Source: a bacterium (GTDB lineage: Bacteria; Bdellovibrionota_C; UBA2361; SZUA-149; JAQTWB01). Taken from it: a stretch of DNA of 62,272 bases. Location of the stretch: assembly GCA_028689495.1 (NCBI GenBank), contig JAQTWB010000010.1:1-62272 (forward strand). The letters run 5' to 3'. The position numbers and the translations under genes were made by a program. Shown one piece after another: positions 9,489 to 46,778 of the stretch; the stretch's first letter is position 1; each line of letters opens with the position of its first letter. The notes under the pieces are model-generated. The model saw nothing but the letters and a program-made list of their open reading frames with translations, made no database searches and had not been told where the DNA came from.

Positions 9489-9590
9489 CGAAAATGGGAC
9501 CGGGTTACTTTTACCCATAACGAAAATGGGCGAAAATGGGACCGGGTGGCGAAAATGGGACCGGGTTACTCGAAAATGGGACCGGGTTAC
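9489..9590. repeat. Repeat family C, array 1: GAAAATGGGACCGGGTTAC x4 with short variable linkers (reverse-complement orientation of GTAACCCGGTYCCATT).
   Basis: Direct reading. The same core is seen at 43607-43748 (x5), ~44335-44360 and ~46721-46750. Confidence 0.7.
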
Positions 9591-9654
9591 TTTTACCCAT
9601 CACTCCGACCAGGCCAATCATGCAGTTAGCACAAAGAAATCACCTGGTTATCTA

Positions 9655-9740
9655 CCCCCTCAAAAGATAGTCTTAACTTTTAGTCAAAAAATCAAAGATT
9701 ATTCATTTTTTTCATAATTGAAACGGCATAGCGACTGCCG
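9655..9740. repeat. Repeat family D copy (CAAAAG..GTCTTAACTTT..AATCAAAGA..TTTTCATAATTGAAACG).
   Basis: About 80% identical to 12628-12712. Shorter relatives (CCATTTCAAAANNGGTCTTA[AC]C) occur at 48041-48070 and 49459-49492. Confidence 0.55.
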
Positions 9741-9761
9741 GCCGTCAAGGAGCCCAAATCA

Positions 9762-9910
9762 TAACCTCAAAATGGGAGTGTTGCGAAATTAGCATTTCGC
9801 CAGGATTGACTTCCGTCAATCCACTTTTTCGCATCTACGATACGAAAAAGTCTCCCCTCTATTAGTTTTTCTTTTGTAGGGCCAAAATGGCCCTACATTT
9901 ACTGCGCTTG
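9762..9910. repeat. Repeat family B, copy 1: a ~150-bp structured element with three hairpins (gcgaaat-tagc-atttcgc; ttgac-ttccg-tcaa; gtagggcc-aaaat-ggccctac).
   Basis: Near-identical to 45554-45693. The two copies bracket the ~36-kb defence/accessory segment. Confidence 0.65.
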
Positions 9911-10013
9911 GTATTCTTTTTAGCGCGCAGGCATCCAGCTTACGCTGTCTGCATTTTGGGTGTGGTGTTCAACAGACCCAAAATGCGCCGGGGAACGACG
10001 GAACTCTCGCAAC

Positions 10014-11957
10014 CTACATCCTGTCTCGTACGTTGATCATCAGCGGCATATCGCCCGAAAGTCCCCACTGCTCATACACTTCCAGCCCCACTCCATTGAC
10101 ACTGCGCTGATACCACTGTCCCGATGACGGACGATAGACTGCGATATCAGCCAGGCCATCACTTTCCAGATCACTGGCAAGTGGCAAATCACCCGGCAGA
10201 CCGAACTGCACGACAGTGTTTTTGTTGTGACAATCGTATGAAGTGCGCGACGGACAGAAATACCAGTTGCCCGATTCCGGCCTCCAGACAGCAAGGTCAA
10301 CCTTGTCGTCTCCGTCAAAATCGCCGGGAATTGGCCGGTCGCCGGACAAGCCCCACTGGTAAGAGTATGTGCTGGCCTCTTCTCCTTCCTTGTGAACCTT
10401 GATGTACCAGGTTCCATTCCCCGGCCGCCAGACGGCGAAGTCGGTCATGCCATCGTTGTCGTAATCAAGTGAGAGTGGCACATCACCGGGTAGCCCCCAC
10501 TGTTCAACACGGTATGAGTTGTCGGCAAAGCGGATATACCAATTCCCTTCGCTCGGTCTCCAGACGGCGTAATCGTTAATGCCGTCTCCATCAAAATCTC
10601 CTTCCATCGGCACATCGCCCGGCAGTCCCCATTGCACAACGCGGTAACTGCTGTCCGCGTGACGGATGTACCAGTTTCCTTCGCTCGGCCGCCAAATAAC
10701 GAGCTCACTGGTCTTGTCGCCATCAAAATCACCGCGAAGCGGCACGTCCCCGGAAAGACCCCACTGAACCATGCTCACCGATTCGGAGAAGGGCTGCCTG
10801 ACATACCAGACGCCGTTTTCCGGGCGCCAGACGGCGATCTCGTCAACCTGTTCTTCTGTTTCAGCAGTAACTTTCATTCTGCGCAAACGGTCGCTCAGCG
10901 GATATGGCTTTAGTATCACCTCTCCGACGCGATCATAGCGATTGCCGTTCTGGCGACCACCCCAGGCGAGAATATGGTTGTGGTCATTAAGCGCCAGCGC
11001 CGAAGTAATGGTCCATGCCGAGCCTGAAACCAGAGCCGGAGTCAGATCCACCAGTCCGCTTTTCGTCCCGACAAGCGGCAAAGCCGAACCGCTACCAAGG
11101 TAGCTGCTGCCGACAATCACACCGGAGTTATTGACGTCGTAGACGACGACATGACTGCCGGCGAAGGGGATGTTCTCCACCGTCGGAGTCTGTGCCGCCG
11201 TGTCGAGATAAAATGTCTCGCCCTCGCCAACTTCACCGACAATAAGGCCATCATCATTTACCGCGTATGGCTTAATCGAGGTATTGCCCACCCAGTTCTG
11301 AATCACGGGAGCAGTGGCTGGTGCGTCGTAAAACATAAATTTATTCGCATAATCCCAGCCAACCAACAGTCCATTATTGTTGATGTCGGAAACTGTCCCG
11401 TAGGGCAAAACAGGATAAAAGGCCGATTGGATATTGATTTCGCCTGCTTCTGTCTGCCCCTGACGATGGCGACAGGCATAATAACCTTCCGACTGAACCC
11501 AGCAGACACTTGCTACGTACTCCCCGCTACCACTTATCGCCGTTGGCATATGCATGGAGGCGTAAGAAGTTGAACCTTTCCCATAAAATGAACTCAAACG
11601 GCCAAGCTCAGTGGTGTAACTGTAAGAATAACCACATATGGAACCGTCATCCGCAACGCCTGTCACCACACCATTCTCCCCGTTCGTCCAGCGCTGGCCG
11701 CTTATCTCTGGTGGCTCAACAGCTGCCTGAAATATTTCCTGAGTACCCCTGATGTAGCTGAAAAGATGTCCACCTGATGGAACGCGATCGAGGTTATCGA
11801 TCTTTCGCTGAACAATTACGCCGTAGTTATAGCCCGCACCGGTGCCGACATGAATTGTCGCAAGAGATTCCGCCGGCAGCGGAGATGAAGACTGGGCATG
11901 TAGATGCTGCGGCAGCAGTAGCATCAGGGACAAGACGATATATTTTTGCAATTTCAT
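10014..11957 (-). CDS. Secreted FG-GAP/VCBS-like repeat protein (beta-propeller type).
   Basis: Signal peptide MKLQKYIVLSLMLLLPQHLHAQS (start chosen at 11957). At least six C-terminal repeats of the form WRPxxGxWYxR...QWGLxGDxPxxGDFDGDGxxDxAVWRP. Confidence 0.7.
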   Translation of the reverse strand: MKLQKYIVLSLMLLLPQHLHAQSSSPLPAESLATIHVGTGAGYNYGVIVQRKIDNLDRVPSGGHLFSYIRGTQEIFQAAVEPPEISGQRWTNGENGVVTGVADDGSICGYSYSYTTELGRLSSFYGKGSTSYASMHMPTAISGSGEYVASVCWVQSEGYYACRHRQGQTEAGEINIQSAFYPVLPYGTVSDINNNGLLVGWDYANKFMFYDAPATAPVIQNWVGNTSIKPYAVNDDGLIVGEVGEGETFYLDTAAQTPTVENIPFAGSHVVVYDVNNSGVIVGSSYLGSGSALPLVGTKSGLVDLTPALVSGSAWTITSALALNDHNHILAWGGRQNGNRYDRVGEVILKPYPLSDRLRRMKVTAETEEQVDEIAVWRPENGVWYVRQPFSESVSMVQWGLSGDVPLRGDFDGDKTSELVIWRPSEGNWYIRHADSSYRVVQWGLPGDVPMEGDFDGDGINDYAVWRPSEGNWYIRFADNSYRVEQWGLPGDVPLSLDYDNDGMTDFAVWRPGNGTWYIKVHKEGEEASTYSYQWGLSGDRPIPGDFDGDDKVDLAVWRPESGNWYFCPSRTSYDCHNKNTVVQFGLPGDLPLASDLESDGLADIAVYRPSSGQWYQRSVNGVGLEVYEQWGLSGDMPLMINVRDRM

Positions 11958-12283
11958 ATCTCGGGCCATGATTTGTAGGTGGCAATTCAAATGATGTGGT
12001 TCTTCGGGCCATACCACAGTAACGATCTCAAAAAAGCAATGAGAGACTGGTTTATACTGCTCGAGATTAAGGTGTTCTAAATCGGGGAAATTAATGTGCG
12101 ACGACTATACACATTGCCATGACTGGAATGGTGGGTGATACTTCGTGCATAAGCATCGCACCGAAAAGTGTGTCGAGATATAAATGTGGGCCGTAACCAG
12201 GACAGGGCGATATGTTTTTGCGCGCTCATATTTCAGGCCTTACTGCTCGTCATTAAATAAACGCTGAAGCCATAAGGAGAAAA

Positions 12284-45287: not shown

Positions 45288-45553
45288 AAAAACCTCCAAA
45301 AAAACTAAATAAAGTTGGGGGATTATCCCGAAACAACATGGGCTACCCATATGGAGGCTCAGACTGTGAGCTGAATGAAAAGGCTAGTAGTTCGTGTATG
45401 GATGTATTTTTAAACGCACCATACACGAACGACATCGGCTTGATGGTTATGCGGTCCCCATTGAATTTTGTAAAGTTGACCTGAGATGGCAGTCCCGACG
45501 CAAACGGACTCGGTGCAATAAAAAGTGGATCGTGCAGAAGCAAAGAACCTTTC

Positions 45554-45693
45554 ATGGGAGTGTTGCGAAATTAGCATTTCGCCAGGATTGACTTCCGTCA
45601 ATCCACTTATTCCGTGTCAGAGACACGTAAGAGCCTCCCCTTTATTAGTTTTTCTTTTGTAGGGCCAAAATGGTCCTACATTTGCTGCGCTTG
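45554..45693. repeat. Repeat family B, copy 2.
   Basis: Near-identical to 9762-9910, including the gtagggccaaaatgg(c/t)cctac hairpin. Confidence 0.65.
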
Positions 45694-45850
45694 TATGCAG
45701 CAAAAACGGCAACAGCTGGTAGAAGTCAATAAACCGGCTAAGGTTATATTGACTGCCTGCGCAAGAAAAGTTCTCGTCCATTTAAATGCAATGGTGAAAA
45801 ATATGACGCCGTTTTGGACTATTCCTGCCTGACTGCAAACACAGTCGCTA

Positions 45851-46000
45851 CGGTAAAAACAACAATTTGAATGTCACTGTTGATTGATATTCACAGAACA
45901 CAACCGTTGTCGCGAATTACACATCGACGATAACATCAACACAGCTGGGCGGACGCAAAGCCCGCGCCCTACGATAAACAACAACAATCTGAATGTCAGC
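45851..46000. repeat. Repeat family A, copy 2 (~1.3 units).
   Basis: Shares ...caacacagctgggcggacgcaaagcccgcgccctacgataaacaacaacaatctgaatgt... with 5490-5690. Confidence 0.6.
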
Positions 46001-46089
46001 GGGAAGAATATTACCATTCATCCCAAGAAGGACCGTTTCGAAACCGTCACGCGAACTTGCCGTGCCCACAGATGTCGGCCCCGCAGATA

Positions 46090-46700
46090 TCAGCATCGAA
46101 AAGCAAACCTTCTGTAAACCAGTTGCCGGATCTACCGCTCGACTTGCAATGCGATAATCAGCAAGGTCGCTGCAGCCATAAAATACGACTTTTCCTTGAA
46201 GCAACCCCTGAGCTCTCGCCCGCTCAACAACCAAACAAACACGTTCGTTGTCTGCACAGACGACAACAAATCCACTCTCCGGGACCTTGCTATTACCCAC
46301 AAGTCTGCAGGAACGAAAATAGTGGCTTCAGTGGGGCAGCAGAGCTCCAGCTCTGCTGCAATTCATATCTCCCGCCAAGCTGCAAATCTGCCGCAAATTG
46401 GCGCAGAGCTGGAGCTCTGCACCCCCGGTATTGCCGTCTGCATGCTGGGAGTGATTTCAAATACGCCCACTTTGCAAGAACATTACCTCTGTTCGATCTC
46501 CAATCGCAACAAGGTAATCTGGTCGGGAACTTGTGGGTAATAGCAAGTCCGGGACAAGAGAAATAGCCTGAATAAACTCATCTTCAATCTGTTCGACGTT
46601 TTCGTAAATATCCGCATGGTCAAACTCAATGCTGGTAATCAGCAGAACATCCGGGCGATAAGAAAGAAATTTGGGCCATTTTGGGAAGGGTGTTCCCGTC
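46090..46700 (-). pseudogene. Internal fragment of an mpl-like Mur ligase paralog (about aa 190-310 of Mpl).
   Basis: About 75% nt identity to 52860-53210 of the intact mpl. ORF 45917-46300 translates to ...PESGFVVVCADNERVCLVVERARAQGLL..VVFYG..DLADY...DPATGLQ, compared with Mpl ...PESGFVVACADNERVRAVVERAQTRGLL..VVFYG..DLADY...DPASGLQ. Confidence 0.6.
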
Positions 46701-46778
46701 AGACTGTATCTGAAGTTTTAGTAACCCGGTTCCACTCCTTCCTCCCCCATTCACAGAGCTTAGTCAGCCCGGCCAGAC

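What the first reader, a model, noticed from the sequence alone, without database searches (positions are those of the whole stretch)
9489..46750. Repeat family C (GTAACCCGGTYCCATT core) forms tandem arrays and sits exactly at gene-truncation junctions
Arrays at 9489-9590 (x4, reverse orientation, short linkers) and 43607-43748 (x5, perfect 27/28-bp tandem). Single copies lie at ~44335-44360 and ~46721-46750. The 43.7-kb array abuts the 5'-truncated alcohol dehydrogenase remnant. The 46.7-kb copy lies at the junction between the mpl fragment and the DUF4143 ATPase fragment. This is the pattern expected for the terminal or target sequence of a mobile element, or for a recombination hotspot.
Basis: seen in the sequence. 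Interest (0 to 1): 0.6.

Follow-up and report, generated by a model that had tools for sequence, protein, structure and literature searches.

The report
Short hairpin-less repeat at gene scars
A 17-31 base oriented repeat occurs only between genes in this contig from an uncultured bacterium, has expanded into two head-to-tail arrays and lies next to broken genes, but I could not show that it is the end of a mobile element.

Summary
The motif AGTAACCCGGTYCCAYT gives 10 matches where 0.03 are expected. It forms a 4-5 unit array at 9489-9603 on the minus strand and a near-perfect 5 x 27/28-bp array at 43606-43748 on the plus strand. There is one clear single copy (46720-46750) and two degenerate ones (44349-44365, 4443-4459).

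All five loci lie in the 12.8% of the window that is non-coding. Array B ends 13 nt before an alcohol dehydrogenase remnant that starts at the equivalent of YahK residue 196. Copy D lies in a spacer of about 90 nt between an mpl fragment and a DUF4143 remnant.

The repeat has no hairpin, no terminal inverted repeats and no target duplication. No transposase or integrase lies next to it. The two arrays are inverted and bracket a 34-kb BREX defence island, but I could not show that the island is an insertion.

The contig does encode an intact RAYT with its own GTAG-hairpin REPs. The genome with the closest RAYT carries an 18-nt x 6 array of one-armed REP units. My best reading (about 0.3) is a REP-like one-armed extragenic repeat expanded by slippage that marks rearrangement scars. 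Interest is moderate to low.

The parts
9489..9603 (-). Array A. It holds four complete units of GTAACCCGGTCCCATTTTCG (A-type) and one 10-nt partial unit. Core spacing is 42, 19 and 21 nt. It is bounded by two 33-nt copies that also carry TTTTACCCAT.
   Evidence: families D13 and D16. No significant fold on either strand (z +0.4 and +1.2).
43606..43748 (+). Array B. It holds five head-to-tail units of AACCCGGTTCCATTCCTGCTTGTCCCC(A) (B-type) with periods 27, 28, 28 and 27. The first unit is preceded by AGTA. Two 57-nt stretches are 100% identical.
   Evidence: No significant fold (z +1.6 and -0.9). The last unit is confirmed by the Logan contig L267.
46720..46750 (+). Copy D, a single B-type unit: AGTAACCCGGTTCCACTCCTTCCTCCCCCAT. 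It is 83% identical to the array B unit over 29 nt.
   Evidence: (family D7).
44349..44365 (+). Copy E, a degenerate unit: ATAGCCCGGTTCCATAC. It is followed by the small hairpin CCTTTTAAAAAGG and lies between the convergent ADH remnant and the Bax-inhibitor gene.
   Evidence: z -1.9; E = 0.004 as a member of the profile's own training set.
4443..4459 (+). Copy F, a degenerate A-type unit: AATAACCCGACTCCATTTTCAC. It lies between the methyltransferase gene and the racemase gene.
   Evidence: About 0.3 matches at 3 mismatches are expected by chance, so this copy is uncertain.
43762..44286 (+). 5'-truncated Zn-dependent alcohol dehydrogenase remnant, equivalent to YahK residues 196-367. It starts 13 nt after array B.
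46016..46687 (-). Internal fragment of an mpl paralogue (aa 199-329 of 521; 75-81% DNA identity to the intact mpl at 52216-53781). It is interrupted at 46274-46543 by a 270-nt insertion that carries an inverted REP doublet. Its 5' break lies 32 nt from copy D.
46779..47441 (+). DUF4143 remnant. The DUF4143 domain is complete but no N-terminal ATPase domain was detected (that full-length proteins of this family carry an N-terminal AAA_14 domain is my own knowledge of Pfam architectures). The ORF starts 28 nt after copy D.
31231..31863 (-). Candidate trans-acting enzyme (inferred, not shown). It is an intact RAYT-type Y1 HUH transposase with the motifs NLPHW, HVHVIV and Y-x-W-D-N-P. It is flanked by inverted GTAG-CCAGACC hairpin REPs and lies in frame inside the pglX ORF.
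   Evidence: 71% identity to the Desulfatirhabdium butyrativorans transposase; close hits named RayT by JGI.

Best explanation
Family C is a lineage-specific, oriented, hairpin-less short extragenic repeat. It has a 17-nt conserved block, AGTAACCCGGTYCCAYT, and units of 20 nt (A-type) or 27-31 nt (B-type).

Shown:
- It occupies only non-coding DNA.
- It exists as two sequence sub-types.
- At two loci one copy has been iterated head to tail. The perfect 27/28-nt units and the partial unit in array A point to replication slippage or unequal exchange.
- Copies lie at or near the break points of three gene remnants.

Inferred:
- The copies behave like the 'one-armed' REP units seen next to RAYT genes. 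In those units the head and 5' arm are present but the complementary arm is missing.
- They would be spread or processed in trans by a single-strand HUH tyrosine transposase of the RAYT type. This contig encodes one such enzyme and shows evidence of REP insertion.
- Breakage or strand exchange at such units, followed by illegitimate joining or deletion, would leave a unit directly next to a truncated gene. Slippage would then expand it.
For: 1. The copies are extragenic: 5 of 5 loci fall in the 12.8% non-coding DNA. A profile search finds no further copy in the 54 kb of coding DNA.

2. The contig carries a working-looking REP/RAYT system. The RAYT has intact HUH and Tyr motifs and is flanked by inverted GTAG-hairpin REPs. 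A 270-nt insertion carrying a REP doublet interrupts the mpl remnant only 180 nt from copy D.

3. There is a precedent for the architecture. Desulfatirhabdium butyrativorans has the closest RAYT (71% identity). An intergenic array in that genome consists of 18 nt x 5.9 units of GTAGCCAGACCGTCYCGT, which are REP head plus one arm. The array ends in one complete hairpin (L268 15947-16053). Half-plus-full units also sit right after that RAYT gene.

4. RAYT-flanking REPs in relatives keep a GTAGC or GTAAC head while the arms vary. Examples are GGTAACCAGAGC in L272 and L268, and GTAGCTGGAGC in L271. Family C starts with GTAAC.

5. The same 11-mer core occurs in direct tandem arrays that flank RAYT genes in two unrelated metagenomic lineages. 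One is low-GC (L231, L236). There the core is followed by a small hairpin whose sequence differs between loci. The other has 55-61% GC (L167, L213, L217; its RAYTs are 29-32% identical to the window RAYT).

6. Orientation. Four of the five loci point towards the next gene downstream.
Against: - Family C has no palindrome. The folds are no better than shuffles. This is the defining REP feature, and Y1 transposases normally need a hairpin.
- Its similarity to the contig's own REP class is not significant. Between 9% and 96% of shuffles align as well.
- The only RAYT in the window is flanked by the other REP class, not by family C.
- The shared 11-mer in other lineages was the search pattern itself. 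With about ten unrelated repeat families recovered, some sharing is expected by chance. The large 'gutless-worm' group of hits is probably eukaryotic, with a coding density of 0.13-0.22 in four of the five longest contigs checked.
- The copy number in the rest of the genome is unknown.
- Only two or three junctions are involved, so the link to truncations could be a by-product of living in decayed DNA.
Confidence: 0.3

Rival explanations
1. Passive repeat. A short sequence was copied to a few places by old segmental duplications or rearrangements within this unstable region. It was then expanded by slipped-strand mispairing. No dedicated enzyme or function is involved.
For: - Array B has perfect units that alternate between 27 and 28 nt, and array A has a partial unit.
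- The surrounding intergenic DNA holds many other short repeat families, for example 9772-9910 = 45554-45693 and 45848-45996 = 5546-5649.
- The sub-types cluster by position: A and F on the left, and B, E and D on the right.
Against: - Flanks of the copies share nothing beyond 17-31 nt. Segmental duplication would have had to be trimmed precisely each time.
- A 17-nt block survives across five loci while everything around it differs.
- The strict extragenic placement and the orientation bias are left unexplained.
Confidence: 0.2
2. Recombination site. The motif is the core or target sequence of a site-specific recombinase or of a repeat-targeting insertion element. Copies would then mark the edges of integrated or deleted segments. 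On this view B, E and D delimit 'cassettes', and A and B delimit the defence island.
For: - B, E and D are in direct orientation within 3.1 kb and separate gene fragments.
- A and B are inverted around the island from 9.6 to 43.6 kb. That island holds Fic, Mrr, BREX-1 and GmrSD.
- The core AACCCGGTT is a quasi-palindrome.
Against: - Apart from the RAYT, no recognisable recombinase, integrase or IS was found among the ORFs scanned in the contig.
- Tandem arrays are not produced by site-specific recombination.
- The A and B units differ in sequence.
- The flanks of the island are not two halves of one gene.
Confidence: 0.15
3. Protein-binding array. The units are binding sites for a double-strand DNA-binding protein, acting as operator, iteron or centromere-like arrays.
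For: - The units are direct repeats, and array A has a period of 19-21 bp, about two helical turns.
- Four of the five loci lie upstream of the next gene and point the same way.
Against: - The 27/28-bp period of array B is not an integral number of helical turns.
- The perfect identity of the B units points to recent expansion rather than maintained sites.
- No rep, par or regulator gene lies alongside.
- At B and D the motif abuts the interior of genes, which cannot be a native promoter position.
- A sigma-54 reading fails on spacing, and an ECF reading fails because no -10 element is conserved (both read directly from the sequence).
Confidence: 0.12
4. Transposon ends. Arrays A and B are the multi-site transposase-binding ends of a large transposon of the Tn7 or Mu type that carries the 34-kb defence island.
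For: - The arrays are inverted at the two edges of the island. One array is tightly packed and the other more widely spaced ([I25]).
- The right array abuts a truncated gene.
Against: - No transposase genes were found in the island ORFs that were scanned.
- The outer flanks share no terminal sequence and there is no target duplication (read).
- The other half of the ADH gene is not at the left edge.
- The B units are identical to each other, which is unlike diverged functional sites.
- Single copies occur elsewhere.
- Composition shows no boundary at the arrays.
Confidence: 0.08
5. RNA element. The strand carrying AAUGGRACCGGGUUAC is transcribed, and the arrays act as GGA-rich decoys for a CsrA-like protein or as 5'-UTR elements.
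For: - The minus strand of array B carries two GGA motifs per unit.
- Adjacent cores can pair (AACCGGGUU with AACCGGGUU) and leave the GGA motifs in loops.
- A terminator-like hairpin follows array A on the plus strand at 9803-9822.
Against: - There is no Rfam match.
- No promoter was found upstream of array A.
- The folds are not better than shuffles.
- The two arrays differ in unit sequence and length.
Confidence: 0.05

Closest known systems
REP / BIME / REPIN elements and their RAYT transposases (PMC3116915, PMC3337134, PMC3479197, PMC5581495)
   Same: - The units are short (20-40 nt), strictly extragenic and lineage-specific.
- They occur as clusters.
- They coexist with a single-copy Y1 HUH transposase in the same genome.
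- The head resembles the conserved GTAG-type 5' tetranucleotide (GTAA here; GTAAC heads occur in REPs flanking related RAYTs).
   Different: - Family C has no palindrome or hairpin.
- It forms no inverted doublets (REPINs).
- Its arrays are direct head-to-tail repeats, not alternating in orientation.
- It does not flank the RAYT gene of this contig.
- Its genome-wide copy number is unknown.
One-armed REP tandem array of Desulfatirhabdium butyrativorans
   Same: - It is a direct head-to-tail array of 18-nt units, close to the 19-21 nt of array A.
- Each unit consists of a REP head plus one arm and cannot fold on its own.
- The array is intergenic and points the same way as the flanking genes.
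- The genome encodes the closest relative of the window's RAYT.
   Different: - Those units are plainly derived from the local hairpin REP, and the array ends in a complete hairpin.
- Family C arrays have no complete hairpin.
- Family C has no significant similarity to the local REP.
Neisseria dRS3 repeats and NIME arrays (recalled from my own knowledge, not checked here)
   Same: They are 20-nt dispersed intergenic repeats that bound small mosaic blocks. They serve as integration targets and rearrangement points in variable regions.
   Different: - dRS3 has inverted termini and alternates with RS blocks.
- A dedicated recombinase is known for dRS3. None is seen here.
Tn7 / Mu-type transposon end arrays (recalled from my own knowledge)
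   Same: They have several direct copies of a binding site of about 20 bp at each end, and the two ends are inverted relative to each other.
   Different: - No transposase genes are present here.
- There are no conserved terminal nucleotides and no target duplication.
- The units of array B are identical to each other.
- Extra solo copies occur elsewhere in the window.

Membership tests
REP / REPIN (RAYT-associated) | Short (about 20-40 nt) and located outside genes | tested here: met
   Units are 20-31 nt. All 5 loci lie in the 12.8% non-coding DNA.
REP / REPIN (RAYT-associated) | Imperfect palindrome that forms a stem-loop | tested here: not met
   DNA folds of arrays A and B and of copy D, on both strands, give z between -0.9 and +1.6 relative to shuffles. 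Only the degenerate copy E is followed by a small hairpin.
REP / REPIN (RAYT-associated) | Conserved 5' tetranucleotide head of the GTAG type | tested here: inconclusive
   Family C has GTAA, and copy E has ATAG. GTAAC heads occur in REPs next to related RAYTs. However, the overall similarity to the REP class is not significant.
REP / REPIN (RAYT-associated) | Copies flank the RAYT gene in inverted orientation | tested here: not met
   The RAYT at 31231-31863 is flanked by GTAG-CCAGACC hairpins. Family C arrays are 21.6 and 11.7 kb away from it. A second RAYT elsewhere in the genome cannot be excluded.
REP / REPIN (RAYT-associated) | Tens to hundreds of copies across the genome | not testable with these tools
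Only this contig and short Logan contigs of the organism are reachable.
Transposon with multi-site ends (Tn7 / Mu type) | Transposase genes lie between the ends | tested here: not met
   Pfam and NCBIfam scans of the island ORFs that were scanned find BREX, Fic, Mrr, GmrSD, AAA_21, DUF3644, a transpeptidase-domain protein (read as a class D beta-lactamase-like protein) and a RAYT. They find no DDE or Tns proteins.
Transposon with multi-site ends (Tn7 / Mu type) | Inverted arrays of binding sites at the two ends | tested here: met
   Array A is on the minus strand and array B on the plus strand, with a 26-nt inverted match of 85% (I25).
Transposon with multi-site ends (Tn7 / Mu type) | Shared terminal nucleotides and a target-site duplication | tested here: not met
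   The outer and inner flanks of A and B share no sequence. No 5-9 bp duplication is present.
Iterons / centromere-like arrays | An adjacent rep or par gene, and helical phasing of the units | tested here: not met
   The neighbouring genes are an NfeD-like/SPFH pair, an FG-GAP protein, an unknown 189-aa protein and the ADH remnant. The period of array A fits two helical turns, but the 27/28-bp period of array B does not.
CRISPR array | Repeats separated by unique spacers | tested here: not met
   The units are contiguous, with no spacers between them.
Known structured RNA / tRNA-derived attachment site | A match to an RNA family or to a tRNA gene | tested here: not met
   Rfam at gathering threshold gives 0 matches. 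ARAGORN finds 0 genes.

The most novel reading that the evidence does not exclude
Family C is a new kind of minimal mobile DNA. It would be a hairpin-less, oriented 20-31-nt unit that a single-strand HUH enzyme (RAYT-like) cuts at a fixed position and joins to other DNA. This would create both the head-to-tail arrays and the 'unit | truncated gene' junctions. In that case such units would actively drive gene decay and the remodelling of a defence-island neighbourhood in an uncultured lineage.
Probability: 0.1. Interest if true: 0.7.

Novelty: new variant of a known kind. Interest (0 to 1): 0.33.

Why it matters
If the one-armed-REP reading is right, REP/RAYT systems would not be limited to palindromic units. 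They would also generate direct tandem arrays and rearrangement scars next to a defence island. Half-REP arrays are not described in the REP papers I know of. That would add a mechanism of genome decay in uncultured bacteria.

If the repeat is only a slippage-expanded lineage-specific sequence, it matters mainly as an assembly hazard and a strain marker. Short-read contigs break exactly at it.

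Tried and rejected
Searches that gave nothing useful
- Genome-collection scan with the 16-mer.
- Viral scans found only chance hits or unrelated repeats.
- Metagenome scan for two cores in tandem. It returned at least 120 loci, mostly unrelated coding or simple repeats. The large gutless-worm group looked REP-like (a GTAG head plus a hairpin) but has a coding density of 0.13-0.22 in four of the five longest contigs checked, so it is probably a eukaryotic host repeat and was discarded.
- None of the fetched loci is related to the window, apart from the organism's own Logan contig L137.
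- A protein search with the peptide translated from array B, meant to catch spurious ORFs over other arrays, found nothing.
- BLAST of both arrays against plasmids found no match.
- Rfam and tRNA searches found nothing.
- Literature searches for the motif and for the run accession found nothing relevant.
- Exact-protein look-ups for flanking genes mostly failed.
- A profile search (nhmmer) found no further copies in the window or in loci of RAYT relatives.

Tests that were negative
- Comparative synteny to define the island is impossible, because the nearest homologue of the one flanking protein searched is only 47% identical.
- Tetranucleotide and GC profiles show no boundary at the arrays.
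- Homology of family C to the local REP class is not significant.

Readings of the motif rejected on the sequence alone
- A sigma-54 promoter: the spacing is off by one and the -12 element reads TTAC, not TTGC.
- An ECF promoter: no -10 element is conserved.
- A tRNA T-arm or attachment site: the stems do not pair.
- A dif/Xer site: the arms are not inverted.
- A CRISPR array: there are no spacers.

Correction to my own early note
- My checkpoint note called the gene at 41703-42473 a 'PBP fragment'. It is an intact class D beta-lactamase-like gene with a signal peptide and the STFK motif.

Full report
OBSERVATION

GTAACCCGGTYCCATT with up to 2 mismatches occurs 10 times, against 0.03 expected. 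The 11-mer core ACCCGGTYCCA with up to 1 mismatch occurs 14 times, against 1.6 expected.

Array A spans 9489-9603 on the minus strand. It reads GTAACCCGGTCCCATTTTCG four times, with core spacing of 42, 19 and 21 nt. It also holds a 10-nt partial unit, and two 33-nt end copies are 97% identical.

Array B spans 43606-43748 on the plus strand. It has 5.1 copies of AACCCGGTTCCATTCCTGCTTGTCCCC(A) with periods 27, 28, 28 and 27, and two 57-nt stretches are identical.

Copy D (46720-46750) is 83% identical to the B unit over 29 nt. The copy near 44.35 kb is degenerate: ATAGCCCGGTTCCATAC at 44349-44365. A further degenerate A-type copy lies at 4443-4459. A profile built from all the units finds nothing else in the window. 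The family therefore comprises 12 units at 3 strong and 2 weak independent loci.

ANATOMY

- The conserved block is about 17 nt, AGTAACCCGGTYCCAYT.
- There are two sub-types. The A/F type continues ...GGTCCCATTTTC. The B/D type continues ...GGTTCCAYTCCTKCYT..CCCC, and the degenerate copy E shares only its GGTTCCA core.
- Similarity between loci stops at the unit edges. The unit is therefore not the tip of a longer conserved element.
- Neither strand of any array folds better than shuffled sequence, with z between -0.9 and +1.6. The repeat is not palindromic. Only copy E is followed by a small hairpin.
- All five loci lie in the 12.8% of the window that is non-coding (P about 3e-5; about 0.002 if only the three strong loci are counted).
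- Four of the five loci point towards the next gene downstream.

CONTEXT

The window is a complete 62,272-bp contig of an NCBI MAG labelled only 'bacterium'. The best homologue of its Bax-inhibitor protein outside this organism is 47% identical, so no close relative is available.

Between arrays A and B lies a defence island of about 34 kb. It holds an FG-GAP protein, Fic, Mrr, a BREX type 1 system (BrxL, PglZ type B, PglX, BrxC, BrxB), GmrSD and a class D beta-lactamase-like gene.

To the right of B lies a decayed stretch from 43.7 to 49.6 kb, followed by housekeeping genes: mpl, aroC, a release factor gene, ybeY and alaS.

JUNCTIONS

- ADH remnant. It aligns to E. coli YahK from residue 196 of 369, starting at nt 43762. 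That is 13 nt after array B.
- mpl remnant. It covers aa 199-329 on the minus strand at 46016-46687, and it is interrupted by a 270-nt insertion. It ends 32 nt before copy D.
- DUF4143 remnant. The ORF starts 28 nt after copy D, and no N-terminal ATPase domain was detected.
- Independent confirmation. A separate short-read assembly contig (Logan SRR22315507, L267) is 100% identical to window 43719-45583. It ends exactly 30 nt into array B on one side and 30 nt into the 140-nt repeat on the other. This confirms the array-to-ADH junction and shows that both sequences are branch points of the assembly graph.

ATTEMPTS AT A CENSUS

Viral scans gave chance hits only. Plasmid BLAST, an array-peptide protein search and a literature search all gave nothing.

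A metagenome scan for two cores in tandem returned at least 120 loci of about ten unrelated kinds.
- The largest group, from gutless-worm metagenomes, has a coding density of 0.13-0.22 in four of the five longest contigs checked. It is probably a host repeat and was discarded.
- A low-GC group is bacterial. In it, ACCCGGTCCCA is followed by a small hairpin whose sequence differs between loci. Direct arrays of these units flank a Y1 transposase gene in inverted orientation (L231, L236).
- A group with 55-61% GC is also bacterial. In it, the core is the 3' arm and tail of a hairpin, and tandem arm-plus-tail units sit beside RAYT genes (L167, L213, L217).
- The 11-mer was the search pattern itself, so this sharing is only weak evidence of relatedness.

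THE REP/RAYT SYSTEM OF THE CONTIG

The 1429-aa pglX ORF contains, in frame, a complete RAYT with the motifs NLPHW, YHVCFRL, MPNHVHVIVEP and YTWDNPDKAGL. It lies at 31231-31863 and is bracketed by inverted GGTAGCCAGACC-N4-GGTCTGGC palindromes.

Its best homologue is a Desulfatirhabdium butyrativorans transposase at 71% identity, and JGI names several close hits 'REP element-mobilizing transposase RayT'. The loci of four homologues show the same REP class next to the gene. The heads are GTAGC or GTAAC, and the arms vary.

In D. butyrativorans an intergenic array consists of 18 nt x 5.9 units of GTAGCCAGACCGTCYCGT, that is, head plus one arm. It ends in one complete hairpin. Direct arrays of one-armed REP units therefore do occur in this RAYT clade.

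In the window, a REP doublet lies inside the 270-nt insertion that splits the mpl remnant. This is consistent with REP units inserting into a gene copy in this genome.

WEIGHING THE EXPLANATIONS

The REP-like reading explains the extragenic placement, the short sharply bounded units, the direct arrays and the presence of a suitable enzyme. It also explains why a unit without its second arm can abut a truncated gene, as a break or join at the unit.

It fails the defining palindrome test. Family C is not significantly similar to the local REP. The local RAYT is flanked by the other class. I therefore do not file family C as a REP. I give the 'works like a one-armed REP plus slippage' model about 0.3.

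The alternatives:
- Transposon ends of the defence island, about 0.08. The inverted arrays fit. However, there are no transposase genes, no shared termini, no target duplication and no compositional boundary.
- A recombinase or IS target site, about 0.15. This fits the direct B-E-D arrangement between gene fragments. However, no recombinase is present, and recombination does not produce tandem arrays.
- A double-strand protein-binding array, about 0.12. This fits the 21-bp period of array A. It does not fit the 27/28-bp period of array B, the identity of the B units, or a position against gene interiors.
- A purely passive slippage-expanded sequence, about 0.2.
- An RNA element, about 0.05. 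There is no Rfam match and no supporting fold.

VERDICT

The motif is extragenic and lies at truncation junctions, and an inverted pair does bracket an island. There is no positive evidence that it is a mobile-element terminus.

It is best described as a new variant of short extragenic repeats. It resembles one-armed REP arrays but is not shown to be one of them. Interest is moderate to low, at 0.33. The decisive test is a whole-MAG census together with read-level junction analysis.

Noticed in passing
window 28471-32760 (-), especially 31156-31945: The BREX pglX ORF (1429 aa) carries, in frame, a complete RAYT-type Y1 transposase (about aa 300-505). The RAYT is bracketed by inverted GTAG-CCAGACC REP palindromes, which are themselves translated (VARPSWSG, RPDQDGLAT). 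All close homologues are stand-alone proteins of 190-300 aa. This therefore looks like a RAYT gene with its flanking REPs inserted into pglX without breaking the reading frame.
   Followed up: partly
window 22790-22888, 24846-24944, 29092-29162, 30183-30214, 31925-31945: Further GTAG-CCAGA(C/G)C REP palindromes lie inside coding sequence, often as doublets 35-63 nt apart. They occur in the 3' part of pglX and in the two duplicated pglZ 5' fragments.
   Followed up: partly
window 20137-20337, 22941-23141, 24997-25197 (and 22629-23141 = 24685-25197, 96%): The 5' end of pglZ is present three times. The two extra copies head short ORFs that match PglZ residues 2-66. Between them lie extra genes: DUF3644, a 430-aa unknown protein and an AAA_21 ATPase. 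This suggests repeated cassette insertion between pglX and pglZ.
   Followed up: no
window 46274-46543: A 270-nt insertion splits the mpl paralogue remnant. It contains an inverted REP-like doublet, GCAGAGCTCCAGCTCTGC at 46339-46356 and 46403-46420. A related palindrome sits just downstream of the intact mpl at 52151-52182, which is where the Logan contig L137 ends.
   Followed up: partly
window 9772-9910 and 45554-45693: A 140-nt repeat (90% identical overall, with a 59-nt stretch at 98%) carries two hairpins: GGATTGACTTCCGTCAATCC followed by a T-run, and TGTAGGGCCAAAATGGCCCTACA. One copy lies 170 nt from array A and the other 1 kb from copy D.
   Followed up: no
window 5546-5649 vs 45848-45996; 6043-6081, 48319-48355 and 49340-49384; 6836-6860 vs 48185-48209; 9660-9725 vs 12637-12702: At least four more short intergenic repeat families, direct or inverted, link the 4-10 kb and 45-50 kb non-coding stretches. 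The contig is unusually rich in repeats.
   Followed up: no
L268 15947-16053 (Desulfatirhabdium butyrativorans AUCU01000036.1): A tandem array of 5.9 x 18-nt units, each a REP head plus one arm (GTAGCCAGACCGTCYCGT), ends in a single complete REP hairpin. I know of no description of such half-REP arrays.
   Followed up: partly
L231 6116-7260 and L236 1216-2260; also L142, L146, L159, L166, L177, L198, L199, L207, L229, L230 and L252: Contigs with 25-30% GC share a REP-like unit. It has a conserved (GT)ACCCGGTCCCA block followed by a 4-6 bp hairpin whose sequence differs between loci. In L231 and L236 direct arrays of these units flank a Y1 transposase gene in inverted orientation. In several loci the arrays lie immediately upstream of ribosome-binding sites.
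   Followed up: partly
window 43588-44286: Array B contains no stop codon in any frame. As a result, an ORF starting at TTG 43588 reads through the whole array into the ADH remnant. The gene call at the cut end of Logan contig L267 also runs through the array unit it holds into the remnant.
   Followed up: no
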